A stretch of DNA of 64,000 nt from Phyllobates terribilis (lineage: Eukaryota). The stretch spans positions 941,222,001 through 941,286,000 of the forward strand of contig NW_027362761.1 of assembly GCF_046119375.1 (NCBI RefSeq), in the 5' to 3' direction. How positions within the stretch are numbered: position 1 is the first letter of the stretch; every line of letters begins with the position of its first letter. Shown in pieces: positions 11,446-64,000 of this stretch. The notes below the pieces were generated by a model. That model saw nothing but the letters and a program-made list of their open reading frames with translations, was not told the origin of the DNA and searched no databases. The translations under genes and the position numbers were made by a program.

Positions 11446-11864
11446 TAGAACAAAATAGTCACCATTAAACACTCTGAGTACTCTTATGAAAGTTAATATT
11501 AATGTGGAAGTGCTATAAATACATGTTGTTACCTAAGCCAATGTTGACCCATCAACTACACACTGCCTTGGAAGAAGCAATAAGCTCAGGTCACTTCTAC
11601 CCGGTAGTCTTGCTCCTCTGGGGATCACTGAGACAAACAAAGGGAGAAATACCTAGAGAAAAAAATAAAGAAAGACAGGAAACTATAACTTTTATAGGGA
11701 CTGATCATCTGACCATTAACATCCAAGACTAAGGGATAGCAGAGAGATTGTATGAAAAAAATTAAACAAAGGGGAGTTGAGCATCTGCATTCGACTGATG
11801 AAGCCATATACGTACTTGCAGTTTCAGCCAATAAAAATCAAAAGAAATAAATCTGACAGATAAC

Positions 11865-12286
11865 TGTTAGAACCTTGCTGTTAGTTTTTTTTTCCTTTGC
11901 TGGTCACATGACCTTGTTGGCCTATTTAATCCTGCTCCGCCCTTCTGGCTTTGCTGGACTTCATTGTATATCTACTTTCTAGCTAGCCTGTGCTCTGTAT
12001 CTATCTCTGTTAGTTTGCTTGGTCTACGGACCTCTATGTTCTATCTATTTTGTTTGTTCGTCTGTCTGCTACTATTTCTGTTAGGAGGTGTCCCATATTC
12101 CTTCCAGTCCTTAGTACTTGTAGGGATTCCCTCCCCACATCTATAGGTCTTCGTACAGACTAGATTAGGACTTTAGCAGGTCTGATCGCAGGATCAGGTT
12201 CCCTGTTACATCGTAGGGATTCAGCTGAGTCCTATAGTAGGGACAGATCTCCTCTCTTTCCTTAGCTTTGGTAGCAGAACATACCA
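11865..12286 (+). repeat. 5' LTR of element 1
   Basis: Direct repeat of 16418-16839. TATA-like TATTTAA at 11923-11929. Confidence 0.95.
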
Positions 12287-12297
12287 GTAAGTCCAGC
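12287..12297 (+). promoter_or_regulatory. Putative self-priming primer-binding site of element 1 (GTAAGTCCAGC)
   Basis: Directly follows the LTR and lacks the TGG tRNA-type start. Bases 12289-12297 are the exact reverse complement of LTR 11953-11961 (GCTGGACTT). Confidence 0.7.
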
Positions 12298-12337
12298 CTG
12301 CAAATTCTCTAAGGAAAGATTTTTTTTTTGTTCCATC

Positions 12338-15300
12338 ATGGTGTCGGTTCAGGATTTGGCTAAACACCTGCAGGGACTCTCTCTGGAAGTGGCCGAGCTC
12401 CGTCAGCACGTGAGTAACTGTCCTGGAGCACATTTCTTGGAGCCTAAGGTATGTTTGCCGGATTTATTTTTTGGTGAACACCGAGAATTTTTTTCATTTA
12501 AAAATGCTTGCTTATTGTATTTTCGTTTGAGACCTAAGTCCTCTGGGGATGAATCCCAGCGCGTAGGGTTCATAATGTCACTTTTGCGCAAAGAGCCTCA
12601 GGAGTGGGCCTTTTCTTTGCAACCTAGTGATTCATGCTTCAGATCAGTGGATAGTTTTTTTTCTGCTTTGGGACTATTATATGATGATCTTGACCGTGTC
12701 GCATCAGCTGAGACTGAGTTGAGACGTTTAAAACAAGGATCGGGTAATGTGGAAAAATATTGTACACATTTTCGTCGTTGGTCCACTCAAACAGGGTGGA
12801 ACGATTCTGCTCTGAAAAGTCTATTTCTTGCTGGGCTCAGTGAAAGGGTTAAAGACCTGCTAATTGCTTATCCTACACCTGAGGATTTGCAACAGGCTAT
12901 GCAATTAGCTATACGGGTGGATAGAAGACTGCGTGCTAGGGTTAATGAGAGCAAATCCTCTGCTATGTCAGTTTCTGGTTATGATAATGTGTGTATTAAC
13001 AGTGGTGAACCGATGGAGATTGGATCGGTGGCACCTCGCTCTCAAGAAAAAGACCGTCGTTTTTCGGAAGGCTTGTGCTTCTATTGCGGAAAATCTGGTC
13101 ATTTGATTAAAGGCTGTGAGCTTCGTATGAAGAAAGAAAAAAAAATGGTCAGTCACGCCCGTATTGCCTGTTTAAATTCCAAGGGTATATTTTTAGCTGC
13201 TTCCACGATTGCTCAGGAAAAATTGATGGAATTTCGGGTGTTTGTTGATTGCGGGTCTACACTGAATGTAATTGATGGGGGATTCGTGGAAAAACTCAAT
13301 TTAAAACCTGAACCTTTATCATCCCCCATTGCTGTGGTTTCTGTGGATGGCTCCCCTTTGAAGAATATTACTCTCAAGGTCAGTGAATTTCCTCTCACTA
13401 TTAATGGTGTTCACCATGAGAAATTGGATTTGGTAGTGTTGAATAACTTGCCTTCTCCAGTAATATTGGGTTTGCCCTGGTTAAAATTTCACAATCCTGT
13501 ACTGGATTGGTCTACCAGTGAAATTAAATCCTGGAGCCATAAATGTTATGACAAGTGTTGTAACGGGCGTATTGCAGCTTTGGATAGGGGAGAATTGCCT
13601 GTTCCTATTCAGGATTTTTGGAGAGTTTTTTCTGAGAAAGAATCGCAGGTTTTGCCTCCCCATAGAGACTATGATTGTTCTATTGAATTTGTCCCTGGAG
13701 CGACTCTTCCTAAGAGTCGTTTATTTAACCTTACTATTCCTGAGAGGAAGGCTTTGGAGGAATACATACAGACAAGCTTGGCCGCCGGTCACATTAGGCC
13801 CTCTAAGTCTCCTGTGGCGGTTGGATTTTTTTTTGTAAAAAAAAAGGACGGCGGTTTACGTCCTTGTCTGGATTTTCGTGAGATTAACAAAATTACGGTA
13901 CGCAATCCTTACCCACTGCCATTGATTCCTGATCTGTTTAACCAGTTATTGGGGGCCAAGTGGTTCTCTAAAATTGACCTTAAGGGGGCATACAATCTGT
14001 TGCGCATGAAGGAGGGTGATGAATGGAAGACTGCTTTTAACACTCCTGTGGGTCATTTTGAGAATCTGGTTATGCCTTTTGGTCTTACTAATGCTCCTGC
14101 ATTTTTTCAGAATCTGATTAATGACATCCTTAGACCTTTGATCGGTAAAAATGTGGTTGTGTATTTGGATGACATTTTGATTTATTCGCCAGATCTGGAG
14201 TCTCATTGGTGGAGCGTGCGTGAAGTATTACAGTTATTAATGGACAATTCGCTTTTTGCTAAGCTGGAGAAATGTGAGTTCGCTGTACAGAGAATTAGTT
14301 TTTTGGGCTACATTATCTCCAGCAAAGGTTTTGAGATGGATCCGGTTAAGGTTCAGGCTGTGCAGGAATGGCCTAGGCCTATTGGTTTGAAATCGATACA
14401 GAGGTTTTTGGGTTTCGCCAATTACTATAGAAAATTCATAAAACATTTTTCTAGTATTGTCAAACCTCTGACTGATCTCACCAGGAAAGGTGCTGATGCG
14501 GTTCAGTGGTCTTCTGAGGCCATTGAAGCTTTTGTGTATCTCAAGGAGAGGTTCACCTCTGCTCCCATCCTTATGCAGCCTGATGTTACTAGGCCGTTTT
14601 TGGTTGAGGTTGATGCTTCCTCTGTGGGGGTTGGCGCAGTATTGTCTCAGGATAACGGGGATGGATTACATCCCTGTGCCTTTTTTTCAAAAAAATTTTC
14701 GGAGACTGAATTGAATTACGATGTTGGTAATCGGGAATTATTGGCTATTAAACTCGCATTTGAACACTGGCGCCACTTCTTGGAAGGTGCGGAATTTCCC
14801 GTTCAGGTTCTTACGGATCATAAAAATCTGATATATCTTGATGCTGCCAAGCGCCTTAATGCCCGTCAGGCTAGGTGGGCACTGTTTTTCTCGCGGTTTA
14901 ATTTCTCCGTTACTTACATCCCTGGTACTAAGAATGTTAAGGCGGATGCCTTGTCTCGCAGTTTTTCTCCCATAGTCGGTGCTGAGAAAGAGGAAAACAT
15001 TTTACAAGAAGGTGTTGTGATAGCTGCTTTAGACTCCGTTTTGGAAGATGAGATTCTTAAAGCTCAGGAGAATGCCCCATCTAACACTCCTCATGGGAGG
15101 TTGTTTGTGCCTGGGACCTTTAGGAGAGATTTGTTTGTTGAGTGTCACGAATCTCGGTTGGCAGGTCATCCCGGAATCTCTGAGACCAAGAGACTGGTGG
15201 GTCGCAGTTTTTGGTGGCCTGGATGGCAGAAGGAAGTCATTAAGTGGGTGCGCCAATGTACTATATGTGCTAGATCTAAGTCCTCAGACACTCCTGCTGC

Positions 15301-16405
15301 GGGGTTGCTTTGTCCTTTGGAGGTCCCCAGTGCTCCTTGGACACATTTGGCTATGGACTTTATAACTGACCTTCCCCCCTCTGAGAGTTTTACTGTCATT
15401 TGGGTGGTCGTGGACCGTTTTAGCAAGATGTGTCACTTGGTTCCCTTCGTCAAACTGCCCTGCGCTAAAACTCTCGCTAAGACCTTTGTCAAAGAAATTG
15501 TCAGACTTCATGGCGTTCCTACTGACATTGTTTCTGATAGGGGTCCTCAGTTCGTGGCTCGTTTTTGGCGTGCCTTTTGTGACAGGTTGGGAATTCATTT
15601 GTCGTTTTCGTCCGGATATCATCCTGAATCTAATGGCCAGACAGAAAGGAAAAACCAGGATGTTGAGCAGTTCTTGCGTTGTTTTGTGGCAGACAATCAA
15701 GAGGGGTGGTCTGAGTTTCTGCCACTTGCCGAATTTGCTCTGAACAATCATACATCTTCTTCTGCTGGTTGTTCGCCTTTTTTTTGTTGTTCTGGGAGAC
15801 ATCCGTCGTTTGGGTCATTCTCCAAGTTGGGATCTGCCGTGCCTGAGGAGGAGAATTTTTCCGGTGATTTGGAAAGAGTTTGGACGGATGTGCGTGGTAA
15901 TCTTCAGGAGGCCAACAGAAAATCTAAAGACTACTTTGATAGGAAACGACAGGAGGTTTTGTTCGCTGTTGGTGACATGGTTTGGTTGTCCTCTAGGAAT
16001 CTGCGGTTGAGGATTCCTTCTAAGAAATTGGGTCCCAAGTTTGTAGGGCCCTTTAAGGTGCTTCAGGTTGTCAACCAATCTGCTGTTAGGTTGGAGGTTC
16101 CTACCTCCTGGAGAATTAATCCGGTCTTTCATGTCTCTCTGTTAAAAAAAGCTGTTGTGTCGGATGGTGACGCCTCTGCCTCTGTTCCTCCGGTGGTGGA
16201 GGACGGGGAATATGAAATTTCTCGCATCCTTGACTCTAGACGGTATAGAGGTAGTTTGCAGTATCTTGTGGCCTGGAAAGGTTTCGGACCCGAGGATAAC
16301 TCTTGGGTGAGGTCAGATGATGTTTCCGCGTCCAGACTTATCAGAGCGTTTCACAGGAGATTTCCTGATAAGCCTGGTCCTAGGGGATCCGGAGGATCCT
16401 CTTAG
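12338..16405 (+). CDS. Gag-Pol polyprotein, 1355 aa (capsid, CCHC knuckle, protease, RT, RNase H, integrase, chromodomain)
   Basis: CFYCGKSGHLIKGC zinc knuckle, FVDCGS protease, YLDD RT, VEVDAS and TDHKNL RNase H, HHCC plus D-D-E (GQTER) integrase, QYLVAWKGFGPEDNSW chromodomain. Confidence 0.95.
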   Translation: MVSVQDLAKHLQGLSLEVAELRQHVSNCPGAHFLEPKVCLPDLFFGEHREFFSFKNACLLYFRLRPKSSGDESQRVGFIMSLLRKEPQEWAFSLQPSDSCFRSVDSFFSALGLLYDDLDRVASAETELRRLKQGSGNVEKYCTHFRRWSTQTGWNDSALKSLFLAGLSERVKDLLIAYPTPEDLQQAMQLAIRVDRRLRARVNESKSSAMSVSGYDNVCINSGEPMEIGSVAPRSQEKDRRFSEGLCFYCGKSGHLIKGCELRMKKEKKMVSHARIACLNSKGIFLAASTIAQEKLMEFRVFVDCGSTLNVIDGGFVEKLNLKPEPLSSPIAVVSVDGSPLKNITLKVSEFPLTINGVHHEKLDLVVLNNLPSPVILGLPWLKFHNPVLDWSTSEIKSWSHKCYDKCCNGRIAALDRGELPVPIQDFWRVFSEKESQVLPPHRDYDCSIEFVPGATLPKSRLFNLTIPERKALEEYIQTSLAAGHIRPSKSPVAVGFFFVKKKDGGLRPCLDFREINKITVRNPYPLPLIPDLFNQLLGAKWFSKIDLKGAYNLLRMKEGDEWKTAFNTPVGHFENLVMPFGLTNAPAFFQNLINDILRPLIGKNVVVYLDDILIYSPDLESHWWSVREVLQLLMDNSLFAKLEKCEFAVQRISFLGYIISSKGFEMDPVKVQAVQEWPRPIGLKSIQRFLGFANYYRKFIKHFSSIVKPLTDLTRKGADAVQWSSEAIEAFVYLKERFTSAPILMQPDVTRPFLVEVDASSVGVGAVLSQDNGDGLHPCAFFSKKFSETELNYDVGNRELLAIKLAFEHWRHFLEGAEFPVQVLTDHKNLIYLDAAKRLNARQARWALFFSRFNFSVTYIPGTKNVKADALSRSFSPIVGAEKEENILQEGVVIAALDSVLEDEILKAQENAPSNTPHGRLFVPGTFRRDLFVECHESRLAGHPGISETKRLVGRSFWWPGWQKEVIKWVRQCTICARSKSSDTPAAGLLCPLEVPSAPWTHLAMDFITDLPPSESFTVIWVVVDRFSKMCHLVPFVKLPCAKTLAKTFVKEIVRLHGVPTDIVSDRGPQFVARFWRAFCDRLGIHLSFSSGYHPESNGQTERKNQDVEQFLRCFVADNQEGWSEFLPLAEFALNNHTSSSAGCSPFFCCSGRHPSFGSFSKLGSAVPEEENFSGDLERVWTDVRGNLQEANRKSKDYFDRKRQEVLFAVGDMVWLSSRNLRLRIPSKKLGPKFVGPFKVLQVVNQSAVRLEVPTSWRINPVFHVSLLKKAVVSDGDASASVPPVVEDGEYEISRILDSRRYRGSLQYLVAWKGFGPEDNSWVRSDDVSASRLIRAFHRRFPDKPGPRGSGGSS

Positions 16406-16417
16406 AAGGGGGGGTAC

Positions 16418-16839
16418 TGTTAGAACCTTGCTGTTAGGTTTTTTTTCCTTTGCTGGTCACATGACCTTGTTGGCCTATTTAATCCTGCTCCCCCCTTCTG
16501 GCTTTGCTGGACTTCATTGTATATCTACTTTCTAGCTAGCCTGTGCTCTGTATCTATCTCTGTTAGTTTGCTTGGTCTACGGACCTCTATGTTCTATCTA
16601 TTTTGTTTGTTCGTCTGTCTGCTAATATTTCTGTTAGGAGGTGTCCCATATTCCTTCCAGTCCTTAGTACTTGTAGGGATTCCCTCCCCACATCTATAGG
16701 TCTTCGTACAGACTAGATTAGGACTTTAGCAGGTCTGATCGCAGGATCAGGTTCCCTGTTACATCGTAGGGATTCAGCTGAGTCCTATAGTAGGGACAGA
16801 TCTCCTCTCTTTCCTTAGCTTTGGTAGCAGAACATAACA
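16418..16839 (+). repeat. 3' LTR of element 1
   Basis: Follows the PPT plus TAC. Near-identical to 11865-12286. Confidence 0.95.
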
Positions 16840-17009
16840 ATAACATTTAGATTATAGTAGTCTGCTATCAGCCCTCAAGAACGATTGTTCTCATATAATC
16901 TATTTCTTTCAACTTTAATGTTATATTTATATTGGCAACTTTATAAGTTATTGTGGATATTATTTCTTATCTCATGAAGATCTCTTCACTGGTTCTACAG
17001 TTTGTCTAT

Positions 17010-30057: not shown

Positions 30058-30688
30058 TGTCACGGGTGTGTTGCCACGAAGATCGTCACGAGTACACAGC
30101 CTGACTTCTCGCAGCTGACTTGTTGGTGCTTTGTGTTTCTCGGCAGTGAGGGAGTTAATTCTCTCTCTCTCTCTGGGCTAGATGAGGTCCAGCCTCGCCC
30201 AGCTGCAATCAAAACTTCTGTAGTGAGACTCCTTCATATACCTGCTGGTCTGTTTGGGAGGTGTCGGTGAAAGCATTTCATTCAGACTGACAGAGCGGAT
30301 CGTGGTGTTTGGAGTTGCTGAGGTAAGTGTATTTGGAAGTGTTTTTTCCCTTTCCTCGCTTTATCATTTATCTCCTTTCCCGTTGGTTTTCCCTCTGTTG
30401 TAGTTGAGTAGTTGTTTGTATGCAAGGTGGTTTTGGTTTTTCCCTTGTACTGTCTCGTTCGTCCAATTACTGTGTTTGGGCATATTATTTCTTGTTCCCT
30501 TTGGTTGTGATCGGGGTCCTTCTCAGGACTAGATTACTGAGGTGCAGGGATCTTCAGGAGGTAGGGGTTACGCTGGCGGCCTGGACCTCTGTACCTTTAA
30601 CAGTACCTCCAGGTTGAGGGATTAGTCAGGGCCCCAGCTTAGGGTCAGCGTAGGCCCCCTACCTCCAGTATACAGAGACAGCGTGACA
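30058..30688 (+). repeat. 5' LTR of element 2
   Basis: Direct repeat of 34847-35477. Differences are A30213/T35002 and G30323/A35112. Confidence 0.96.
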
Positions 30689-30699
30689 TTTTCACCGAC
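30689..30699 (+). promoter_or_regulatory. Putative self-priming primer-binding site of element 2 (TTTTCACCGAC)
   Basis: Complementary to LTR 30263-30273 (GTCGGTGAAAG) with 10 Watson-Crick pairs and 1 G-U pair. No TGG tRNA-type start. Confidence 0.8.
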
Positions 30700-30723
30700 C
30701 CACTTAGTTTTTCTCCAGCTACT

Positions 30724-31563
30724 ATGGATCCAGTAGCCGGTCTAGCTCGGCAATTGCAGGGTTTGTCCATGGAGCTGGCGGACGTTAGGTCCAAGGTTTG
30801 GCATCCTCAGGAGCAAGCCGGACCAGAACCTAAAGTAGCTCTCCCTGATAGGTTCACTGGGGGGCGGGACAAGTTTTTTGTTTTCCGGGAGGCATGTAAA
30901 TTGTACTTTCAGCTGCGGCCTCGGTCATCGGGGAGTGAAGAACAAAGGGTGGGAATTGTCATCTCGCTCCTACAAGGGGACCCACAATCTTGGGCGTTCT
31001 CTCTTCCCCCGGGTTCCCCGGCTCTCCAGTCAGTGGATAGGTTTTTCGCTGCCCTGGGACTCGTATATGATGACCCAGATCGGATCTCCCTTGCTGAGTC
31101 TAAGTTACGTAGGATCCAGCAGGGAGATCGTCCGGCGGAGGAATTCTGTTCGGAGTTCCGTAGGTGGGCCACGGACACCCAGTGGAATGACCCGGCTCTT
31201 AGGAGCCAGTTTTGTCATGGTTTATCCGACAAATTACAGGATGTGTTGGCACAGTATGACTCTCCCGTGTCTCTGGAAGCCGCTATGGCCCTCGCTATTC
31301 GCGTGGACAGACGGCTTCGGGAGAGGTGCGGGATAACTCTACCCCCTGTGATGACTCCACCTCCTACAAGGTCCCCTCATATGGTGGTTCCCCTGGTCAG
31401 TCCAGAGGAGCCTATGCAATTAGGAGGGACATCATTTCGGGGGAGGGGACCGGTGGTGCGCCATAAGGCAGGAAGGTGTTTCTTCTGCGGGAGAAAGGGA
31501 CATTTTATTGGGGGGTGTCCATCCCGTCCCTTGCAGAGTGAAGAGTCGTCGGAAAACTGTTGA
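30724..31563 (+). CDS. Gag, 279 aa (retrotransposon capsid plus CCHC knuckle)
   Basis: EPKVALPDRFTG..LYFQLRP capsid, EPMQLG motif, CFFCGRKGHFIGGC knuckle. Confidence 0.93.
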   Translation: MDPVAGLARQLQGLSMELADVRSKVWHPQEQAGPEPKVALPDRFTGGRDKFFVFREACKLYFQLRPRSSGSEEQRVGIVISLLQGDPQSWAFSLPPGSPALQSVDRFFAALGLVYDDPDRISLAESKLRRIQQGDRPAEEFCSEFRRWATDTQWNDPALRSQFCHGLSDKLQDVLAQYDSPVSLEAAMALAIRVDRRLRERCGITLPPVMTPPPTRSPHMVVPLVSPEEPMQLGGTSFRGRGPVVRHKAGRCFFCGRKGHFIGGCPSRPLQSEESSENC

Positions 31564-31610
31564 TCCCAGGTTGTGTGGTGGACGGCAATCTGGGAGTAGG
31601 TATTTCGTCC
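31551..31610 (+). promoter_or_regulatory. Putative -1 ribosomal frameshift signal (G_GAA_AAC plus H-type pseudoknot)
   Basis: Heptamer in gag phase, 6-nt spacer, stem 1 31564-31573/31586-31595, stem 2 31580-31585/31605-31610. Confidence 0.7.
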
Positions 31611-34600
31611 CTAGGTTCGTCTCAGTTTCTCGTACCGGCGAAGGTGGTGGTGGGTACGAGAACTGAGAGGATATCTGTTCTTCTGGATAGTGGGGCCGGG
31701 GCTAATCTGGTTGATGCTCGGTTTGCCCGGGTTCAAGGTATGCGGTTGAGTGAGTTGGCTAAACCCATCCCCATATTCTCGATCGATGCCAGGCCTCTCG
31801 GGCAGGGAAGTTTTTTGCAAGTTGTGCATGACGTAAAACTTCAAGTGGGGGCAATACATAAAGAACTGTTGTCTTGCTACGTGTTGGAGGGTCTTCCCAC
31901 TCCTATTGTGTTGGGCCTTCCTTGGTTAGCTAAGCATAACCCGGTTATTAATTGGCAAACCAGGGAGATAAGCCAATGGAGTAAATTCTGTAATAAAAAC
32001 TGCATGAACACGGTCATTGGTGCGGTTACTCCTTGGGTCTTACCTCCATTTCTGGCGGACTTTGAGGATGTATTCTCGGAGAAAGGGTGTCAGGAACTAC
32101 CTCCTCATCGCGTGTATGACTGTTCTGTAAAACTGCTTCCTGAGGCCAAGTTACCTAAAGCTAGGTTGTATAACCTTTCTGGTCCTGAGAGGCAGGCCAT
32201 GAAGGATTATATCTCAGAAAGTCTGGCTAAGGGGCATATTAGACCTTCATCTTCACCGGTGGCTGCGGGGTTCTTCTTTGTTAAGAAGAAAGATGGAGGC
32301 CTACGCCCTTGCCTGGATTTCCGTGAACTTAATCGGATTACGGTCCGAGATCCGTATCCGCTCCCACTTATTCCCGATCTCTTTAATCAGATCGTGGGCG
32401 CCAAATGGTTTTCTAAGTTGGATCTCAGGGGGGCGTACAATCTGATTAGGATGAAGGAGGGGGATGAGTGGAAGACGGCGTTTAACACTCCGGAGGGGCA
32501 TTATGAGAACCTTGTCATGCCATTTGGTCTGACTAATGCCCCGGCGGTGTTCCAACACTTTGTTAATGACATTTTTCGCCGCTTGGTGGGACAGTTTGTT
32601 GTCATATATCTGGATGATATCCTAATTTACTCGCCGGATCTGGTGTCTCATCAGGAGCACGTTAGGCAGGTGTTACAGATCTTGCGGGATAATAAACTGT
32701 ATGCCAAGTGGGAAAAGTGTGTGTTCGTCGTACAGGAACTCCAGTTTTTAGGCTTCCTGGTTTCAGCGTCCGGTTTTCGTATGGACCCTGGGAAAGTGCG
32801 GGCAGTTCTTGAGTGGGATCGGCCAGAGAATCTTAAGGCACTACAACGTTTCCTGGGGTTTGCTAATTATTACCGGAAGTTCATTCGTAATTTCTCGTCC
32901 ATGGTTAAGCCTCTCACTGACATGACTAAAAAGGGGACGGATTTTTCTAGGTGGTCTGACAAGGCTTGTCAAGCATTCTCCTCTTTGAAAAAATGTTTTG
33001 CCTCGGCGCCCATACTCATTCAACCTGATGCGTCTCAGCCATTCATTGTAGAGGTAGACGCTTCCGAGGTAGGGGTGGGAGCAGTATTGTCACAGGGTTC
33101 GTCCCCTGGTAAGTGGCATCCGTGCGCCTTTTTCTCTAAAAAATTGTCGTCCGCTGAGAGGAATTACGATGTCGGCAATAGGGAACTCTTGGCCATTAAG
33201 TTAGCTTTTGAGGAGTGGCGCCATTTTCTGGAGGGGGCTGTTCATCCGGTCACCGTCATCACCGATCACAAGAACCTGCTATATCTGGAGTCCGCGAAAC
33301 GTCTGAATCCCAGACAAGCTAGGTGGTCATTGTTTTTTACCAGGTTTAATTTTGTCGTTACATATCGTCCTGGGTCAAAAAATGTAAAGGCGGATGCCTT
33401 ATCTCGTAGTTTCCCGGGGGCCGGGAATACGGACGACCCGATTCCTATCCTTCAGGAGGGGGTGGTGGTTTCGGCAGTATGCTCTGAGCTGGAGGAGGAG
33501 GTATTGGAGGCTCAGGGGGACGCCCCTGTTGGACCTCCAGGGAGATTGTTTGTTCCAGATCAGTTGCAACAAAAGGTGATCGAGGCACACCATAACTCAG
33601 TTTTTGCAGGACACCCGGGGAGTAAAGCTACTGTGGATCTCCTCTCGCGTCGGTTTTGGTGGCCTAATTTACATAAGGAGGTGGTAACTTTTGTCGCGTC
33701 CTGTGGGGTTTGTGCGCGCTCTAAGACCTCACATACCCGTCCGTCTGGGGCCCTCTTACCTTTGAAGATCCCGGAGCGTCCTTGGACTCATCTGTCTATG
33801 GACTTTATTACGGACCTCCCTCCGTCTTCGGGTAAAACGGTCATACTCGTTGTAGTGGACAGGTTCAGCAAGATGGCACATTTTATCGCTCTTCCGTCTC
33901 TCCCTAATGCTAAAACTCTTGCGCAGGTGTTCATTGGGGAGATTGTGAGGCTTCACGGGGTACCCTCCGAGGTGGTGTCTGATCGGGGGTCTCAGTTTGT
34001 GTCTAAGTTCTGGAAGGCGTTTTGTGCACGGCGGGGGATGCAGTTGTCATTCTCATCGGCTTTTCATCCTCAGACCAATGGTCAGACGTATCTCCGGTGT
34101 TTTGTGTCAGAGAACCAGGAGGACTGGGCTTCTTTCTTACCTCTGGCAGAGTTTGCTCTTAATAATAGGCGGAGCGAGTCCACTGGTAAGTCCCCGTTTT
34201 TTGGGGCATATGGTTTTCACCCCCAGTTTTGTACTTTCAGTGGGGGGGGCTCTTCGGGGGTTCCTGAGGAGGAACGATTTTCCTCATCACTCGCTTCAGT
34301 ATGGAGAGGGGTGCTGAAGAATCTGAATACTATGGGGAACCGATACAAACGTATGGCTGATAGGAGGAGAGTGTCTGGTCCGGACCTAAGTGTGAACGAT
34401 CGGGTATGGTTGTCTACCAGGAATATTAAACTTAAGGTTCCCTCCTGGAAACTGGGTCCCAGGTTCATCGGGCCGTACAGAATCAGTTCTATTATTAATC
34501 CGGTGGCATTCCGTCTTGACCTCCCCCCTACGTTTAAAATTCACAACGTGTTTCACAGATCATTGCTTAAGAGGTATGTGGCGCCGGTGGTACCGTCACT

Positions 34601-34907
34601 TTTACCTCCCCCTCCAGTGGTTGTCAATGGTAACTTGGAGTTCCAGGTATCGAGGGTCATTGATTCACGCTTTAATCGCCGGTCCCTTCAGTACCTGGTT
34701 CATTGGAAGGGGTATGGTCCTGAGGAGAGGATGTGGGTTCCTGCGTCGGATATTAACGCAGACCGATTAGTTCGGGCCTTCCACACGACTCACCCGGATA
34801 AACCTGGCCCTGAGGGTCCGGAGGCCCCTCGTAGAAGGGGGGGTACTGTCACGGGTGTGTTGCCACGAAGATCGTCACGAGTACACAGCCTGACTTCTCG
34901 CAGCTGA
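31551..34907 (+). CDS. Pol (PR-RT-RH-INT-chromodomain), in -1 frame relative to gag; integrase has an in-frame deletion
   Basis: LLDSGA protease, YLDD RT, TDHKNL RNase H, integrase and QYLVHWKGYGPEERMW chromodomain. The annotated 31560 start is a TTG, so a -1 frameshift at 31551-31557 is the more likely entry. Confidence 0.9.
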   Translation, partial: GKLLIPGCVVDGNLGVGISSLGSSQFLVPAKVVVGTRTERISVLLDSGAGANLVDARFARVQGMRLSELAKPIPIFSIDARPLGQGSFLQVVHDVKLQVGAIHKELLSCYVLEGLPTPIVLGLPWLAKHNPVINWQTREISQWSKFCNKNCMNTVIGAVTPWVLPPFLADFEDVFSEKGCQELPPHRVYDCSVKLLPEAKLPKARLYNLSGPERQAMKDYISESLAKGHIRPSSSPVAAGFFFVKKKDGGLRPCLDFRELNRITVRDPYPLPLIPDLFNQIVGAKWFSKLDLRGAYNLIRMKEGDEWKTAFNTPEGHYENLVMPFGLTNAPAVFQHFVNDIFRRLVGQFVVIYLDDILIYSPDLVSHQEHVRQVLQILRDNKLYAKWEKCVFVVQELQFLGFLVSASGFRMDPGKVRAVLEWDRPENLKALQRFLGFANYYRKFIRNFSSMVKPLTDMTKKGTDFSRWSDKACQAFSSLKKCFASAPILIQPDASQPFIVEVDASEVGVGAVLSQGSSPGKWHPCAFFSKKLSSAERNYDVGNRELLAIKLAFEEWRHFLEGAVHPVTVITDHKNLLYLESAKRLNPRQARWSLFFTRFNFVVTYRPGSKNVKADALSRSFPGAGNTDDPIPILQEGVVVSAVCSELEEEVLEAQGDAPVGPPGRLFVPDQLQQKVIEAHHNSVFAGHPGSKATVDLLSRRFWWPNLHKEVVTFVASCGVCARSKTSHTRPSGALLPLKIPERPWTHLSMDFITDLPPSSGKTVILVVVDRFSKMAHFIALPSLPNAKTLAQVFIGEIVRLHGVPSEVVSDRGSQFVSKFWKAFCARRGMQLSFSSAFHPQTNGQTYLRCFVSENQEDWASFLPLAEFALNNRRSESTGKSPFFGAYGFHPQFCTFSGGGSSGVPEEERFSSSLASVWRGVLKNLNTMGNRYKRMADRRRVSGPDLSVNDRVWLSTRNIKLKVPSWKLGPRFIGPYRISSIINPVAFRLDLPPTFKIHNVFHRSLLKRYVAPVVPSLLPPPPVVVNGNLEFQVSRVIDSRFNRRSLQYLVHWKGYGPEERMWVPASDINADRLVRAFHTTHPDKPGPEGPEAPRRRGGTVTGVLPRRSSRVHSLTSRS

Positions 34908-35477
34908 CTTGTTGGTGCTTTGTGTTTCTCGGCAGTGAGGGAGTTAATTCTCTCTCTCTCTCTGGGCTAGATGAGGTCCAGCCTCGCCCAGCTGCAATCA
35001 ATACTTCTGTAGTGAGACTCCTTCATATACCTGCTGGTCTGTTTGGGAGGTGTCGGTGAAAGCATTTCATTCAGACTGACAGAGCGGATCGTGGTGTTTG
35101 GAGTTGCTGAGATAAGTGTATTTGGAAGTGTTTTTTCCCTTTCCTCGCTTTATCATTTATCTCCTTTCCCGTTGGTTTTCCCTCTGTTGTAGTTGAGTAG
35201 TTGTTTGTATGCAAGGTGGTTTTGGTTTTTCCCTTGTACTGTCTCGTTCGTCCAATTACTGTGTTTGGGCATATTATTTCTTGTTCCCTTTGGTTGTGAT
35301 CGGGGTCCTTCTCAGGACTAGATTACTGAGGTGCAGGGATCTTCAGGAGGTAGGGGTTACGCTGGCGGCCTGGACCTCTGTACCTTTAACAGTACCTCCA
35401 GGTTGAGGGATTAGTCAGGGCCCCAGCTTAGGGTCAGCGTAGGCCCCCTACCTCCAGTATACAGAGACAGCGTGACA
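34847..35477 (+). repeat. 3' LTR of element 2
   Basis: Follows the PPT plus TAC. Near-identical to 30058-30688. Confidence 0.96.
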
Positions 35478-38433
35478 GCACTGCACCCAGTCCATGCAAG
35501 CTTCCGTGAGTGTACAACACGAGAGGCTGTGATAAATCAGCGTAATCCAGAATTGGGGCATCCGTTAGCGCCATTTTCTATGCTCGGAATGCCTCTTCTT
35601 GTCGTGGGCCCCACTGAATGGGCTGCCGCTTTGCTCCCCCAGACATTGCTCTCAGTACTCATGGAGCGGGACTGCAATCTTAGCGAAGTCTTTTATGAAT
35701 CTGCGGTAGTATTCAGCAAGCCCGAGGAATGCCCTCAATTCTCTTAGGTTGGCAGGTGTGGGCCACTTCTGCACTGCAGCTACTTTCTCCTCAGTGGGAT
35801 GGACTTCCACACTAGACACAGTGTGCCCCAGATATTCAATTTCCCACTTGAAGAGATGACACTTACGAGGCTTGATTTTTAGTCCATGTCTCTGAAGTCA
35901 TTCTAACACTTGCTCCATTCAGTGGAGATGATCTTCAAACGTAGCGGAATAGATAATTATATCGTCAAGATATATTAAAGTGGCTTCGAAGTTGAGGCTC
36001 CCCAAGCATCTCTCCATCAGTCTTTGGAAGGTCCCTGGTGCATTTGTTAGACCGAACGGCATCCGGGTTGAACTCAAACAAGCCCATAGGAAGGACAAAA
36101 ACTGTCTTCGGACGATCCTTCTCAGATACTGGGACCTGCCAGTAGCCACTTGCCAGGTTGAGAGAAGAGAAGAACTTGGTGCTTCCTAGTGCAGATAGAG
36201 ACTCTTCAATTCGGGGTAGTGGATAGGAGTCCCGCACTGTACATGCATTCAGCTTCTGATAGTCTACACAAAACCCCAGGGTACCATCCTTCTTCCGAAC
36301 CAGCATGATAGGGGCAACCCAAGGACTCTGACTTTTGCGGATCACGCCATTCCGCAACATGTGGGTCAACAGTTCTTTCACCTCCTGGTACATTTGAGGT
36401 GAGATCTGTCAATATCTCTCTTGAAAGGGAGCAGTATTTCCTGTGGGTATTTCATGCCGAATGTCCCGAGTGCACCTTAAATCATCTTCATGGTGTGCAA
36501 ATACTCCCTGATACCGCTGTAGAAGTTGTTTGCTCTGTCTGACCTGCCCTGCAGAAAACTCAGTAAGGTTAGCCTCCATTTGCTCTAAGAGGTGGCGCCC
36601 AGCCAACGGTTCTCTTCCATTCTCTTGGCTGTTGAGGGACACCTCTGGGGTCCATGGTTCTCCTTCCACAGGTGCCAGCCATATAGCGTCAGCTCTGTTA
36701 AGATCCTCTGGCATTATGCAAACTAGCACCACCTCTTGTCGGGGCAACAACTGCAAACTTGTGCCAATTAGATTGATGCAATGCACAGGCACCTGGCCCT
36801 GCCACACGTTTGCCAGGGTGCGAGCAACCAGAAGTCCGGAGGGTGCTTCCTCTCCCTATATTGGTTCAATCTGAATGTCCACACCCTCTAAGGACACACG
36901 TGCCTGTACCGGTAAAGTGAGTACAGTCTGTCCCACTGGCAGTGTCACTGTGGCTTCAGGCGGTATCGATACCTTACCAAGATACTGAGAGGTAGTGGGC
37001 AATTTTTGAATTTTGCTGACTCGCATGAGATGCTGGAATACTCTCTTGCTGGCTGGGTCACGATTGGCGCGGGTCCAGTTGTTTTTGTCAGAGCCCTCAG
37101 CCAGGAACTGTCCGACCTCCTTCAGCACATTCATGCCCAGGGTTACGATGGGCCCGTCGCCTCCAGGCCCTGTGGTCAGTACGATCCCTTTCGGACTGAG
37201 GTCTTTTGCGCATGCCCGAACAGACATCCATACTACCCCAGCTACTGGGATAGGTAGTTGATTAGCCGCCACCAGTTTGACAGTGGGTTCCCTCCAGGAA
37301 CGAACAACTTCAGGAAACTTACTTTGGAAATACGTCTCAGGCATAGTGGTCACCTGAGACCCGGTGTCCATTAGACAACGAACCCGCTGCCCATTAAATT
37401 TAGCCCAGATGATGAGCCTCTCAGAGACAATGTCTTCAGAGCTCCCTCTTCCACTCTCCGAAGTTTGAAACCCCACGGTATGCTCCACAACCGTGGGGTG
37501 CCTTAGTTTAACGGCTGCCCCCATCTCCTCCTTTCTCGGTTCGGACAGTCTTTGGATATATGCCCCCTACCGCCGCAGTTCCACCACTCCGGCCCTCGCT
37601 CCACCGATAGGCCAGGTACATGACGTGTTGGAGCTTGCTATGAACGTCTCTCGCTCTGGCCTCCGTCCACGTGGGGTGGTGCGGTCCATCGGCAAGGGGG
37701 CAGAAGGGATATTCCTAATAGTGCTCAGCTCACCTCAAATATCTTGAATTTCCTGACATATCTTCCGTGCCCATTTGGGCTCTTTTATGGGTGAATTCAG
37801 GAATAGTTACTTCATGGCTTCTGACTGTGGCCTTGAAAACAGGAACTTCTTATTCCAGGACTCTAGCTTCAGCCCCAACCTCCAGAAAGCCCAGATCTGG
37901 ACTCAAAAGCAGCCGCTCCTTTAAGATCTGCCTCAGGGAAGGGTCCTTCAAGCCAGCAATCAGTTAATCATGCAACACTTCATCCAATAGTCCCAGTCCT
38001 CGGTTCTCATCTCGAGCCTTCTTAACTATATGGGCCGCCACTTCCTGTAATGCATTAACATATTGGTTCATGGTCTCATTTTTCCCTTGGACCTGCTGAA
38101 ATAACCACAGGCGCAAGTGCCCCAGATCCGTGGAGTCACCATGCATGTCCTCCAGAATTTTTATCACTTTGTCTATGGTGTCACGGTCCCCAGGTGGGAG
38201 GTACATCACAGTTTGCCGGGTCTCTCCATCAAGGGTTAGGAGGGCCAGCTCCGCCTGGGATAGGGAATTAAAGGGATACATGCATAGCACACTTCTCAGT
38301 CTTTCTACCCAGTCCCACAGTGACATGACATCCCCATGAACTTGGGAAGGTGGCTGAGCATAGCCCCAAGGGAATGTGTCCCCTGTCGGCCCCAGTCACA
38401 GACTGATCCGCCATCTCTGCATCTGAATGTTGC

Positions 38434-38542: not shown

Positions 38543-38594
<52 letters not shown>
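38543..38594. repeat. (TA)26 microsatellite left of Tc1
   Basis: Pure TA run. Confidence 0.95.

Positions 38595-40230
<1,636 letters not shown>

Positions 40231-40288
<58 letters not shown>
40231..40288. repeat. (TA)29 microsatellite right of Tc1
   Basis: Pure TA run. Confidence 0.95.
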
Positions 40289-51835: not shown

Positions 51836-52759
51836 GTGTGGAGCGATTCACCGGTTTCTGAGCTATTGTGGAATTTACAATAGATATCACTCATGAAGTG
51901 AAATCTTTGCATTGTACTATATATATATATTTCTCCGCCGTATCTCTGCATCATGAATCGTGGTATGTGTTAAAGGGGCCCACTGAGACTCTTTCGCCCG
52001 GGGCCCAGAAAAACCTGGAGCCGGCCCTGGGTACAAAGGAGGGAGACTAAGGTAATAAAGGGAATGGAGGGACTAGAATACCCAGAGAGGTTGTCAAAAT
52101 TAGGCCTATTTACGTTGGAAAAGAGAAGGCTTAGGGGAGACCTCATAAACATGTATAAATACATCAGGGGGCAGTACAGAGATCTCTCCCATGACCTGTT
52201 TATACCAAGGATGGTGACAAAGACGAGGGGGCACACTATGCGTCTGGAGGAAAGGAGGTTCCTGCACCAGCATAGAGGGGGATTCTTTACGGTCAGAGCC
52301 GTGAGACTCTGGAACTCTCTGGGAGAGGAAGTGGTGATGTCCAACTCACTTAATGAGTTCAAGAGAGGCCTGGACGCCTTTCTTGAGAACAATAAAATTA
52401 CATCTTATGCTTAGTTAATTAATCCAGGGATTTAATCTGACTGCCAGATTGGTGTCGGGAAGTGAATTTTTCCTCAGTGATGTAAATTGGCCTATACCGC
52501 ATGGGTTTTTGTTGCCTTCCCCTGGATCAAGGCTGCGGAATAGCTGCAGTGCACAAGAAATAGGCTGAACTGGATGGACGCTTGTCTTTTTTCGGCCTTA
52601 TAAACTATGTAACTATGTAACTATGTAACTATAAAATGCACTCCCATAGTCCTCCATAAAATATAATGCACCTCATAGTCCTTCATAAAGTATAACGCAT
52701 TCCATTGTCCTCCATAAAGTATAATGCACGCCCATAGTCATCCGTAAAGTATAATACAC

Positions 52760-54181: not shown

Positions 54182-56638
54182 TACATAGTTTATAAGGCCG
54201 AAAAAAGACAAGAGTCCATCCAGTTCAGCCTATTTCTTGTGCACTGCAGCTATTCCGCAGCGTTGATCCAGGGGAAGGCAAAAAAAAAAAACATGCGGTA
54301 TAGGCCAATTTACATCATTGAGGAAAAATTCACTTCCCGACTCCAATCTGGCAGTCAGATTAAATCCCTGGGTTAATTAACTATCACTAAGCATAAGATG
54401 TAATTTTATTGTTCTCAAGAAAAGCGTCCAGGCCTCTCTTGAACTCAATAAGTGAGTTGGACATCACCACTTCCTCTCCCAGAGAGTTCCAGAGTCTCAC
54501 GGCTCTGACCGTAAAGAATCCCCTTCTATGCTGGTGCAGGAACCTCCTTTCCTCCAGACGCATAGTGTGCCCCCTCGTCTTTGTCACCATCCTTGGTATA
54601 AACAGGTCATGGGAGAGATCTCTGTACTGCCCCCTGATGTATTTATACATGTTTATGAGGTCTCCCCTAAGCCTTCTCTTTTCCAACGTAAATAGGCCTA
54701 ATTTTGACAACCTCTCTGGGTATTCTAGTCCCTCCATTCCCTTTATTACCTTAGTCGCCCTTCTTTGTACCCTCTCTAGCTCCAATATGTCTTTCCTGAG
54801 CACCGGAGCCCAGAACTGTGCACAATATTCTAAGTGCGGCCTTACCAGCGCTTTATACAGAGTAAGAACAATGTTCTCATCATATGCCCCTATTCCTCTT
54901 CTGATGCATGCCATGACTCTATTTGTCTTCGCAGCTGCTGCCTGACACTGGGCACTCCAATTTAATTTGCTGTTAACCAAGATGCCCAGGTCCTTCTCCA
55001 TGTCAGATTTCCCCAACGGTTTCCCATTTAATATGTATGGGTGACTGCTGTTTTTCTTTCCCATGTGCATGACCTTACATTTATCGGCATTGAACCCCAT
55101 TTGCCATTTTTTGGCCCAACTCCTCAATTTATCTAAATCCTCCTGTAGCTGTGCCCTATCCTCATCTGTATTAACTACTTTACAAAGTTTAGTATCATCT
55201 GCAAATATTGCTATTTTACTATGAAACCCTTCCACTAGATCATTAATAAATATATTAAATAATATAGGGCCCAAGACAGACCCTTGAGGCACCCCGCTAG
55301 TAACCCCGACACACCCTGAGCTTACTCCATTGATAACCACCCTCTGCTTTCTATCACTCAGCCAGCTATTTACCCACTTGCACACATTATCCCCCAGACC
55401 AAGCATTCTCATTTTATATACCAACCTTTTGTGTGGCACGGTATCAAACGCTTTGGAGAAGTCAAGGTATACAACATCCACTGACTCTCCCCGGTCCAGC
55501 TGTGAGCTCACCTCCTCGTAGAAGGCGATCAGGTTTGTTTGGCAGGAGCGATCCCTCATGAATCCATGTTGATATGGAGTTAGACAGTTATTATCATTAA
55601 GATATTCTACAATAGCATCTCTAAGAAATCCTTCAAACAATTTACCCACAACAGACGTTAAGCTTACTGGTCTATAGTTCCCAGGGTCACTTTTAGACCC
55701 CTTTTTGAATATTGGTACCACATTTGCTTGGCGCCAGTCTAGTGGGACAGTCCCTGTCCATAAAGAGTGCTTGAATATAAGATACAGTGGTCTGTCTATC
55801 ACATTACTTAATTCTTTTAGTACCCGGGGGTGTATGCCATCTGGGCCTGGTGGCTTGTCTATTTTGATATTATTTAGGCGTTTCTGAACTTCCTCCTGGG
55901 TTAGGTGGGTGATATTTAGCGGAGGGTTTACTTTATCACTCTGCATTTCCTCCGATAAATTGTTTTCTTTTGTGAAAACAGTGGAGAAGAAGCTATTGAG
56001 TAGGTTTGCTTTACCCTCATCGCCCTCTATGATTTTACCCAGGTTATTTTTCAATGGGCCAACTCCATCAGTTTTAATCCTGTTACTGTTTATATAGTTA
56101 AAGAACAGTTTGGGATTCATTTTACTTTCCTTGGCAATTAGTCTCTCTGTCTCATCTTTTGCTATTCTTATTTGTTTCTTACAGATTTTGTTTTTTTCCC
56201 TATAAGATATTAGCGCTTCCTCACTGCCTTCTTGTTTAAGTTTACCGAAAGCCCTTTTTTTGTTTTTCATTGCCCTCTTGACTTCCTTATTTAGCCACAT
56301 TGGCTTCCTCCTATTCCTAGCCCTTTTATTCCCATAAGGTATGTACCTTCTACAGTGACTATGTAGGACTGTTTTGAAAATTTCCCATTTTCTATCCGTG
56401 CTCCTATTACTGAAGATACTATCCCAGTCTATAAGGTGAAGGGCATCTCTTAGCTGATCAAACTTTGCCCTCCTGAAGTTCAGTGTTTTTGTGACTCCCT
56501 TGCTGGGCACCCTACTGAAGCACATGTGGAATTGTATAATGTTGTGGTCACTATTTCCCAGGTGCCCCCGACCTGCACCCCAGTTATTCTGTCTGGCCTG
56601 TTAGTTAATATTAAGTCTAAAAGGGCCTTTTCTTTGAT
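54182..56638 (-). mobile_element. CR1 LINE copy B, 5'-truncated (about 2.45 kb)
   Basis: Begins in the endonuclease C-terminus (ALLDLILTNRPD..GNSDHN) and continues through RT, 3' UTR and an AACTATGTAA tail. Possible short TSD TTAT. Confidence 0.95.
54387..56525 (-). CDS. CR1 ORF2 remnant, uninterrupted 712-aa reverse transcriptase region
   Basis: YRPVSLTS, QHGF, YLDFSKAFD, GVPQGSVLGP and FADD motifs. The 5' part of ORF2 is missing, so it is not autonomous. Confidence 0.9.
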   Translation of the reverse strand: MCFSRVPSKGVTKTLNFRRAKFDQLRDALHLIDWDSIFSNRSTDRKWEIFKTVLHSHCRRYIPYGNKRARNRRKPMWLNKEVKRAMKNKKRAFGKLKQEGSEEALISYREKNKICKKQIRIAKDETERLIAKESKMNPKLFFNYINSNRIKTDGVGPLKNNLGKIIEGDEGKANLLNSFFSTVFTKENNLSEEMQSDKVNPPLNITHLTQEEVQKRLNNIKIDKPPGPDGIHPRVLKELSNVIDRPLYLIFKHSLWTGTVPLDWRQANVVPIFKKGSKSDPGNYRPVSLTSVVGKLFEGFLRDAIVEYLNDNNCLTPYQHGFMRDRSCQTNLIAFYEEVSSQLDRGESVDVVYLDFSKAFDTVPHKRLVYKMRMLGLGDNVCKWVNSWLSDRKQRVVINGVSSGCVGVTSGVPQGSVLGPILFNIFINDLVEGFHSKIAIFADDTKLCKVVNTDEDRAQLQEDLDKLRSWAKKWQMGFNADKCKVMHMGKKNSSHPYILNGKPLGKSDMEKDLGILVNSKLNWSAQCQAAAAKTNRVMACIRRGIGAYDENIVLTLYKALVRPHLEYCAQFWAPVLRKDILELERVQRRATKVIKGMEGLEYPERLSKLGLFTLEKRRLRGDLINMYKYIRGQYRDLSHDLFIPRMVTKTRGHTMRLEERRFLHQHRRGFFTVRAVRLWNSLGEEVVMSNSLIEFKRGLDAFLENNKITSYA

Positions 56639-62478: not shown

Positions 62479-64000
62479 TTAGAGTGCGTTCGGAGGAAGA
62501 CCTCGTCGGTCATCATCCGCAAGCACTTCAGCTGCCTCCCCTTGCCTGGATAACCCATCTGCTTTACCGTGGGCCCGGCCGGACTTATACCGAACATCAA
62601 AGTTGTAGTGTTGGAGAGCTAGGCTCCAACGCAACAACCTTCCGTTCTCACTGGCTACTCGAGATAGCCAAGTGAGGGGGTTGTGGTCCGTCACCACAGT
62701 GAAATGGCGCCCGTAGACGTATGGCTGCAGATGCTGCAGAGCCCACACGATCGCCAGGCATTCCTTCTCCACCGTAGAGCAGGCCACTTCCCTCGGCAGA
62801 AGTTTCCGACTGAGGTATTGAACAGGGTGCTCTTGACCTGCTGAGTCAGGTTGGCTCAGCACCGCACCAAGTCCGTAGGTGCTGGCGTCAGTCTGTACTA
62901 CTAGCGGCCGGGAGTCGTAGTACGCCTGGAGTACAGGGGCTGCCACCAGGGCAGCTTTCAAGGCCTGGAAGGAGCGCTCACAGTCCGCTGTCCAGTTGAT
63001 AGCTTGCAGCAGCTTCTTCTTGGTGAGGTCTGTCAGGGGCTTGGCCAGGGCACTATAGTCCTGTACGAACTTCCTATAGTACCCGGCCATACCCAAGAAA
63101 GACATCACCTGTTTCTTGGTCCTTGGGGTGGGCCAGGTCGTGATTGCATCCACCTTCCCAGATTCTGGTCTCAGTTTCCCCCCACCTACCCGGTGTCCAA
63201 GGTATTGGACCTCGGTCATGCCCATCTGACACTTTCTCGGCTTGATGGTCAAGCCTGCCCGGTGGATCCGCCCCAGCACCTCTGACAGGTGCCGAAGGTG
63301 TTCCTCCCAAGTGGGGCTGATGACGGCAATGTCATCCAGGTACGCAGCTGCGAACCCTTCGCACCCTGACAGCAAGGTGTTGACCATCCGCTGGAAAGTG
63401 GCGGGGGCATTCTTCATGCCAAATGGCATGACGGTGGGCTCATACAGTCCAAAAGGAGTGATAAAGGCTGATTTCTCCTGTGCCTCTGGGGACAGGGGAA
63501 TCTGCCAGCAAGCATCCTCGGCTCAAGTCCATGATGGTCAAGTACTGAGCCTTGCCCAACCGGTCAAGCAGGTTGTCGATGCGCGGCATGGGGAACGCGT
63601 CATCGGCGGTAATGGCATTGAGCCCCCTGTAATCCACACAGAACCGGGTCGTCCGGTCCTTTTTGGGTACGAGGACTACAGATGAGGCCCATGCGCTGGT
63701 GGACGGGCGGATCACCCCCAGCTCCAGCATCTCGGCAATCTTCTTCCGCATTTGCTCCTGTACCTCCAAGGAGACGCGATATGCCGTTCGCCGGATAGGG
63801 GCGTCATTCCCCGTGTCCACTCGGTGGACTACCAGCTTTGTCCGCCCGGGCTTTCCTGAGAGGAGGCCAGGGAAAGGGCGCATAACCTCCTTCAGCTGGG
63901 ACCGTTGGTCCTCAGACAGAAGGATGTTCATGGGGGCATCCTCCATGGACCCTCCCGCACGGGCATGTGCGAGCAGATCCATGAGGTCCTCCTCCTCCCC
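62479..64000 (-). pseudogene. Pol RT-RNase H with one frameshift (about 63507-63514)
   Basis: RFCVDYR, MPFGMKNAPATFQR, AYLDD, QTDAS, TDHNPL and ADGLSR motifs. The expected GYWQIP appears as GGA TGC TTGC TGG CAG ATT CCC, a 4-bp insertion. Confidence 0.88.

What the first reader, a model, noticed from the sequence alone, without database searches (positions are those of the whole stretch)
11923..12297. Element 1 has the same self-priming geometry with a completely different sequence (natural covariation)
Seen: PBS GTAAGTCCAGC (12287-12297) pairs over 9 contiguous bp with GCTGGACTT (11953-11961), which begins 30 nt after TATTTAA (11923). Pairing again stops sharply at the predicted +1 G. The LTRs and PBS of elements 1 and 2 share little sequence, yet the spacing and complementarity are conserved. 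Two independent lineages with compensated sequences support the structure better than either alone. The two primer-end positions (CA where AC is needed) are mismatched here, which may mark a priming defect in this copy or a shorter duplex.
Basis: partly seen in the sequence, partly recalled or inferred. Interest (0 to 1): 0.7.

Follow-up and report, generated by a model that had tools for sequence, protein, structure and literature searches.

The report
Self-priming retrotransposon with cut-site scars
A very abundant jumping gene has no tRNA docking site; nine bases at the predicted start of its own RNA pair with the spot where copying begins, a self-priming trick already known from yeast Tf1, and recurrent errors shared by both ends of many sister copies likely mark where that RNA is cut and capped.

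Summary
Observation confirmed; mechanism already known (Tf1/sushi self-priming); the defect idea is wrong. Element 1 is a chromodomain Ty3/gypsy (LTRs 11865-12286 and 16418-16839, 5-bp TSD). The 9-bp duplex pairs LTR 11953-11961 with +3..+11 after the LTR. By chance 1 of 4077 internal windows does this at TATA+30. CA at 11962-63 is the family norm (29,378 LTRs; AC in 1 of 200 listed variants). The unpaired GT at +1/+2 mirrors AC before the 3' LTR and is likely the integrase-trimmed end. In 31 of 35 surveyed chromovirus copies the duplex lies in +1..+12, mostly starting at +3. Elements 1 and 2 are sister families, not independent lineages. New here: within the family, variants at primer nt 9 (368 LTRs, all three bases, often in both LTRs, at least 13 origins, PBS partner unchanged) and T>G at -1 (at least 5 origins) look like non-templated and cap-copied bases. 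They would map the cut after nt 9 and the start at 11953. No RNA data confirm this. The scan noted self-priming layouts before in other genomes.

The parts
11860..11864 (+). Left target-site duplication ATAAC
   Evidence: identical to 16840-16844
11865..12286 (+). 5' LTR of element 1, 422 bp, TGTTA start; 4 differences from the 3' LTR, one of them a private C at 12284
   Evidence: A at that place in 29 of 30 nearest copies
11923..11929 (+). TATA-like box at -30
   Evidence: sequence; AT-rich 7-mer at -30 in the family representatives; function inferred
11952..11952 (+). Position -1; site of recurrent T>G in sister copies, read as a copied cap
   Evidence: interpretation inferred
11953..11961 (+). 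Predicted 9-nt self-primer at the predicted RNA 5' end; nt 9 (11961) is the both-LTR mutation hot spot in sister copies
11962..11963 (+). Unpaired CA after the predicted cut; family norm
12255..12265 (+). U5 arm of a predicted 11-bp stem enclosing the PBS
12287..12288 (+). GT spacer, mirror of the AC before the 3' LTR; likely the two terminal bases removed at integration
   Evidence: role inferred
12289..12297 (+). Primer-binding site, +3..+11; no TGG
12309..12319 (+). Leader arm of the predicted U5-leader stem
12338..16405 (+). Single gag-pol frame, 1355 aa: Gag with CCHC, protease, RT, RNase H, integrase, SH3, chromodomain; no env
16404..16417 (+). Polypurine tract followed by TAC
16418..16839 (+). 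3' LTR, TGTTA...TAACA
16840..16844 (+). Right target-site duplication ATAAC
30263..30272 (+). Element 2 predicted self-primer (5' LTR 30058-30688)
30690..30699 (+). Element 2 primer-binding site, +2..+11

Best explanation
Element 1 is a young copy of a very abundant chromodomain Ty3/gypsy retrotransposon that likely primes its own reverse transcription: its RNA is predicted to start at G11953, the first nine bases would pair with 12289-12297, and RNase H would cut between bases 9 and 10. Shown: the anatomy, the 9-bp complement, its place two bases after the LTR, the family-wide CA, and the variant counts. Inferred: copying starts at the GT spacer, so both cDNA ends read ACTGTTA/TAACAGT and integrase trims two bases (trimming recalled from retroviruses). 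Strong-stop DNA ends at base 10. A non-templated base added there lands on base 9 after the first jump and is copied into both LTRs. Less often RT runs to an uncut capped 5' end and copies the cap, leaving G at -1.
For: Chance is low. 31 of 35 non-TGG elements have a duplex of 8 bp or more within +1..+12, starting at +3 in 21 and +2 in 7; the 3'-flank control gives 2 of 35. Nine family representatives: cognate 9-10 pairs, non-cognate 2-8 apart from the identical pair E/F; pyrimidine|G start and C after the PBS in 9 of 9. Variant LTR counts against 29,378 exact: nt 5 = 87, nt 8 = 59, nt 9 = 368, -1 = 107. Full-length both-LTR pairs: nt 5, 1 in 87 rows; nt 8, 12 in 59; nt 9, 30 in the 100 listed; -1, 28 in the 100 listed, all G. 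Nt 9 variants are C 38, A 37, G 25 of 100, on 23 haplotypes in 32 5' LTRs, with at least 13 origins forced by starred branches and A kept at +3 in 32 of 32. The -1 G lies on 13 haplotypes in 19, at least 5 origins. The unpaired nt 10 TA variant is one clade. Tf1 is cut at the end of its primer (PMC7175516) and its RT adds non-templated bases strongly (PMC3185545).
Against: No RNA 5' end or cDNA end was seen; only contigs were available. The hot spot was tested in one family; 47 rows from six other families showed no both-LTR change at the last primer base, too few for a 1% event. Nt 11 also has both-LTR pairs (11 in 100 listed of 192, other flanks) and nt 8 has 12, so the peak is not confined to one base. 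Only 6 positions were profiled. No -1 G copy lies on the largest chromosome (0 of 90 listed, p about 0.0006), which independent per-round events do not explain. The three-duplex 'pretzel' is only partly seen: the U5-leader stem beats shuffles in 7 of 9 families but not in element 2 or family B, and cross-family pairs are often as stable.
Confidence: 0.75

Rival explanations
1. Self-priming is right, but the nt 9 and -1 variants are not footprints: nt 9 is simply tolerated (an 8-bp duplex suffices) and -1 G is favoured because it adds a pair with C12298, so many small sub-lineages carry them.
For: Small clades of variants exist in the tree, and labels are more clustered than shuffles. The -1 G copies avoid chromosome C1. 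G at -1 would pair with the C that follows the PBS.
Against: Truly unpaired nt 10 shows one clade, whereas nt 9 shows all three bases on many backgrounds. The +3 position is paired in most surveyed elements, so it looks selected. At -1, 90 of 100 variants are G, a transversion, against 6 of 59 G at nt 8.
Confidence: 0.15
2. The duplex is only a structural closure of the leader RNA (packaging or translation), and copying is primed by a host RNA such as a tRNA fragment.
For: Priming was not observed. Half-tRNA priming exists in copia elements (PMC6317226) and was not tested here.
Against: No TGG in +1..+8 of element 1 or 34 other elements. The duplex ends in a fixed register two bases from the LTR across nine different sequences. 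A hot spot at nt 9 is not expected if the RNA stays uncut.
Confidence: 0.06
3. The primer is 11 nt as in Tf1 and this copy is priming-defective.
For: Tf1 uses 11 bases; elements with pairing into +2 or +1 occur (8 of 31).
Against: CA in 29,378 LTRs, AC in 1 of 200 listed variants; a TA subfamily, also unpaired, has spread.
Confidence: 0.03
4. The 9-bp match is chance.
For: About 2% of internal 20-mers have a 9-bp complement somewhere in the LTR.
Against: 1 of 4077 at the TATA+30 site; repeated in 31 of 35 elements against 2 of 35 controls.
Confidence: 0.01

Closest known systems
Tf1/Tf2 of Schizosaccharomyces pombe (PMC7175516 passages; bioRxiv 10.1101/2022.12.06.519325 passages)
   Same: Chromodomain Ty3/gypsy, single ORF, no tRNA site, 5' end of the RNA complementary to the PBS, flanking U5-leader stem.
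   Different: Tf1 primer is 11 nt; here 9 nt (10 in most other families surveyed) with a 2-nt unpaired spacer. Gag here has a CCHC motif, which fission-yeast elements lack. The third duplex of the pretzel was not consistently found.
[quoted passage not shown]
   Same: Vertebrate host, chromodomain, about 5 kb, LTR ends fit the Sushi motifs TGTYANR and CNTNACA (3' LTR), self-priming predicted in print (Butler et al. 2001, cited there; paper not seen).
   Different: No reference sequence was available for a direct tree. In the passages seen, priming in vertebrates is 'implicated' or predicted, and no cut site or start site is mapped.
Plant Tcn1-clade chromoviruses (PMC6317226, passages and supplementary file 5)
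   Same: Self-priming predicted for 83% of elements from a 10-bp or longer LTR complement starting 0-5 bp after the 5' LTR; 5-bp TSD.
   Different: Moss and club-moss hosts; that 10-bp rule would have missed element 1's 9-bp duplex.

Membership tests
Ty3/gypsy chromovirus | Domain order Gag-PR-RT-RH-IN with a C-terminal chromodomain | tested here: met
   Pfam; best PDB match Ty3 Gag-Pol
Ty3/gypsy chromovirus | TG...CA LTRs, polypurine tract, 5-bp TSD | tested here: met
Tf1/sushi group | No tRNA-type PBS (no TGG next to the LTR) | tested here: met
   half-tRNA complementarity not tested
Tf1/sushi group | PBS complementary to the predicted RNA 5' end | tested here: met
Tf1/sushi group | Two further duplexes flanking the PBS (pretzel) | tested here: inconclusive
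   U5-leader stem 14 of 500 shuffles in element 1 and 19 or fewer in 7 of 9 families, not family-specific; upstream stem inconsistent
Tf1/sushi group | RNase H cut at the primer end and priming from it | not testable with these tools
   indirect footprint only
Tf1/sushi group | RNA starts at the first primer base | tested here: inconclusive
   no raw RNA reads; TATA-like box at -30, pyrimidine|G and -1 G variants are indirect
V-clade (sushi/Amn) | Phylogenetic placement with named reference elements | not tested
   no reference sequences held; the tree only separates the nine families from three TGG-bearing elements (100/99, long-branch warning)
V-clade (sushi/Amn) | Sushi integrase-recognition motifs at LTR ends | tested here: met
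   TGTTAGA and CATAACA (3' LTR) against Table 3 of PMC3601003; this copy's 5' LTR differs at 12284

The most novel reading that the evidence does not exclude
The roughly 29,000 LTR copies form a natural mutation-accumulation experiment that records reverse-transcription intermediates at single-base resolution. It maps the RNase H cut after base 9 and the cap at 11953 for a vertebrate self-priming element, shows a short primer plus 2-nt spacer as the vertebrate rule, and shows that some copies are made through an uncut capped RNA (priming or jumping in trans). The C that follows the PBS in 9 of 9 families may pair with, or be copied from, the cap.
Probability: 0.55. Interest if true: 0.6.

Novelty: new member of a known kind. 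Interest (0 to 1): 0.42.

Why it matters
Self-priming has been shown by experiment in yeast Tf1 and, in the papers seen, only predicted for vertebrates. The finding as given repeats that prediction. The footprint, if it holds, gives in-vivo evidence and exact positions for the cut and the start site from genome sequence alone. The same counting could test any high-copy element with a disputed primer. It also shows that a 10-bp cut-off for self-primers misses real cases.

Tried and rejected
No RNA holder listed, contigs only; laying them gave no start or end and could not show 1% variants. One search did show A at 12284 in all four runs. A longer interrupted duplex reaching the LTR end was considered and dropped: it rested on the private C12284 and a wrong LTR end. 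An apparent 4-bp TSD had the same cause. The cross-family test of the U5-leader stem was not specific. Replication of the hot spot in other families was underpowered. The metagenome search for outgroup elements gave no answer. Primary papers (Levin 1995, Lin and Levin 1997 and 1998, Atwood-Moore 2006, Esnault and Levin 2015, Wilhelm 2001) are not held; Butler 2001 was not seen. Passages of PMC6088434, PMC5371799 and PMC4668388 gave nothing on end errors. Supplementary file 1 of PMC6317226, which lists individual PBS calls, was too large to read and may bear on the spacer claim. ARAGORN found no tRNA in the window. Half-tRNA priming was not tested.

Full report
1. Observation. The letters and coordinates are correct. 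The element is a complete LTR retrotransposon: LTRs 11865-12286 and 16418-16839 with 4 differences in 422, TSD ATAAC, a purine tract followed by TAC, and one 1355-aa frame with Gag, protease, RT, RNase H, integrase, SH3 and chromodomain. A private C at 12284 hides the LTR end in a simple diagonal comparison; 29 of the 30 nearest copies and the element's own 3' LTR have A there. A 9-bp complement somewhere in the LTR is not rare (90 of 4077 internal 20-mers), but at TATA+30 it is (1 of 4077; shuffles 6 of 20000).

2. The two mismatches. The genome (10.6 Gb) holds 29,378 exact matches to the 21-mer with CA, 291 with another base at nt 10 (of 100 listed, 92 TA and 8 AA, counted by eye) and 192 with another base at nt 11 (other flanks; AC 1 of 100 listed). 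CA is the family norm, not damage. GT at +1/+2 is the exact mirror of the AC between the purine tract and the 3' LTR, so both ends of the cDNA would read ACTGTTA/TAACAGT. That integrase trims two such bases is recalled from retroviruses and comes from no call.

3. Survey. I fetched 120 regions around SH3_Tf2-1, DUF4939 and Chromo hits. They were picked by hand from the best 150 of each search, mostly for long open frames, so the sample is biased. With elements 1 and 2 this makes 122. Of these, 44 had TG...CA ends and a 5-bp TSD, and 37 of the 44 had a purine tract directly before the 3' LTR. The 7 dropped were L084, L108, L118, L139, L170, L173 and L186; three of them show the duplex and one has TGG. 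Two of the 37 have TGG. Of the other 35, 31 have a duplex of 8 bp or more within +1..+12 (start +3 in 21, +2 in 7, +4 in 2, +1 in 1) and 4 miss; the same test on the 3' flank gives 2 of 35. Nine family representatives (one is L173) have an AT-rich 7-mer at about -30, a pyrimidine|G start, 9-10 cognate pairs against 2-8 non-cognate (families E and F share a primer), and C right after the PBS in 9 of 9. Family A shows a compensated pair among its own copies (L073 against L078). Elements 1 and 2 share 3 of 9 primer letters and no real LTR similarity but are sisters, 73.6% identical in RT-RNase H. The covariation is real but inherited, not independent. All 30 nearest copies of element 2 have the window's primer and PBS.

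4. Flanking structure. With the PBS held open, 12255-12265 pairs with 12309-12319 at probability 0.98 or more. The U5-leader stem beats shuffled leaders in 7 of 9 families (19 or fewer of 500), not in element 2 (411) or family B (150), and cross-family pairs are often as stable. A second, upstream stem was not consistent. The Tf1 pretzel is thus only partly met.

5. Footprints. I counted single-position variants of the same 21-mer: nt 5, 87; nt 8, 59; nt 9, 368; -1, 107. A change made during reverse transcription in R or U3 ends up in both LTRs; a later mutation hits one. Full-length both-LTR pairs were 1 in 87 rows at nt 5, 12 in 59 at nt 8, 30 in the 100 listed at nt 9, 28 in the 100 listed at -1 (all G), and 11 in the 100 listed at nt 11 (nt 9 against nt 5 p about 3e-18). 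At nt 9 all three bases occur (C 38, A 37, G 25). I compared 5' LTRs: 32 nt-9 variants kept from 50 loci (3' LTRs, solo LTRs and unresolved ends left out; two rows come from one tandem element), 19 of 20 for -1 G, 19 of 20 unselected, 5 from 12 loci for nt 10 TA. Nt 9 variants lie on 23 haplotypes, need 19 changes on the tree (13 forced by starred branches), and keep A at +3 in 32 of 32. The -1 G lies on 13 haplotypes and needs 6 changes (5 forced). Nt 10 TA is one clade (100/97). The bootstrap had not settled, and the labelled columns were left in, which favours clustering.

6. Mechanism. Inferred: RNA starts at G11953; bases 1-9 pair with +3..+11; RNase H cuts after base 9, as Tf1 is cut after base 11 (PMC7175516); RT copies GT, U5 and R up to base 10. 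Tf1 RT adds non-templated bases strongly (PMC3185545). Such a base would face base 9 after the jump to the 3' R and pass into both LTRs without changing the PBS, which is the pattern seen. G at -1 fits copying of the cap on an uncut RNA. That end-of-template errors and cap copying occur in retroviruses and Ty1 is recalled; my searches did not retrieve a passage for it. Against: no RNA or cDNA ends were seen, one family only (underpowered), lesser peaks at nt 8 and 11, only six positions profiled, and no -1 G copy on chromosome C1 (0 of 90 listed, p about 0.0006), which stays unexplained.

7. What is known. Self-priming is the hallmark of the Tf1/sushi group of fungi, vertebrates and mosses (passages of PMC6317226, and its supplementary file 5; bioRxiv 10.1101/2022.12.06.519325; PMC4600332). 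Amn-san chromoviruses are the most abundant LTR elements in a frog genome (PMC4131045 passages). The LTR ends fit the Sushi motifs (PMC3601003 passages). Passages of PMC2864245, PMC11042837 and PMC3035444 added background only. Butler et al. 2001 and the Levin primary papers were not seen, so I cannot say whether the 2-nt spacer is already drawn there. The scan has noted self-priming layouts in moss, ray, shark-like and diatom genomes (not checked).

8. Verdict. The feature is real and is a new member of a known kind. The added value is the footprint, which makes the cut site and start site of a vertebrate self-primer directly testable. Interest 0.42; 0.6 if the footprint reading (probability about 0.55) holds.

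Noticed in passing
L153, L154, L156, L159, L170 (small unplaced contigs): Ty3/gypsy elements with TGGTATCAGA after the LTR, a tRNA-Met-type site typical of plant elements (label recalled), on a separate long branch; possibly foreign DNA in the assembly (-style scan, tree).
   Followed up: partly
G000, listing: The -1 T>G variant is missing from the largest chromosome (0 of 90 listed) and frequent on small scaffolds; unexplained.
   Followed up: partly
L228 and L229 (G000:C1:206.54 Mb): One element has different non-standard bases at primer nt 9 in its two LTRs (A and G), which would need two end errors or an error plus a later change.
   Followed up: no
window 12298 and the matching base in eight other families: C follows the PBS in 9 of 9 families, opposite where the cap would sit; may be shared descent, cap pairing or cap copying.
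   Followed up: no
window 16400-16403: TCTT precedes the purine tract of element 1, a feature described as specific to fission-yeast elements; element 2 lacks it.
   Followed up: no
L244-L246 (G000:C1:468.87-468.89 Mb): Three-LTR tandem of the element 1 family with the same nt 9 variant in all three LTRs.
   Followed up: no
window 30058-35477: Element 2: LTRs differ at 2 of 631 bases, TSD GCACT, gag and pol in two overlapping frames; it appears to sit in another retroelement (protease-like hit at 36859-37566, minus strand).
   Followed up: partly
window 38543-40288: DDE_3 transposase frame between 188-nt inverted arms and long TA runs, a Tc1-like insertion.
   Followed up: no
window 54387-56600 and 62479-63522, minus strand: A further RT frame between long inverted arms (52029-52415 and 54386-54772) and a partial RT-RNase H frame.
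   Followed up: no
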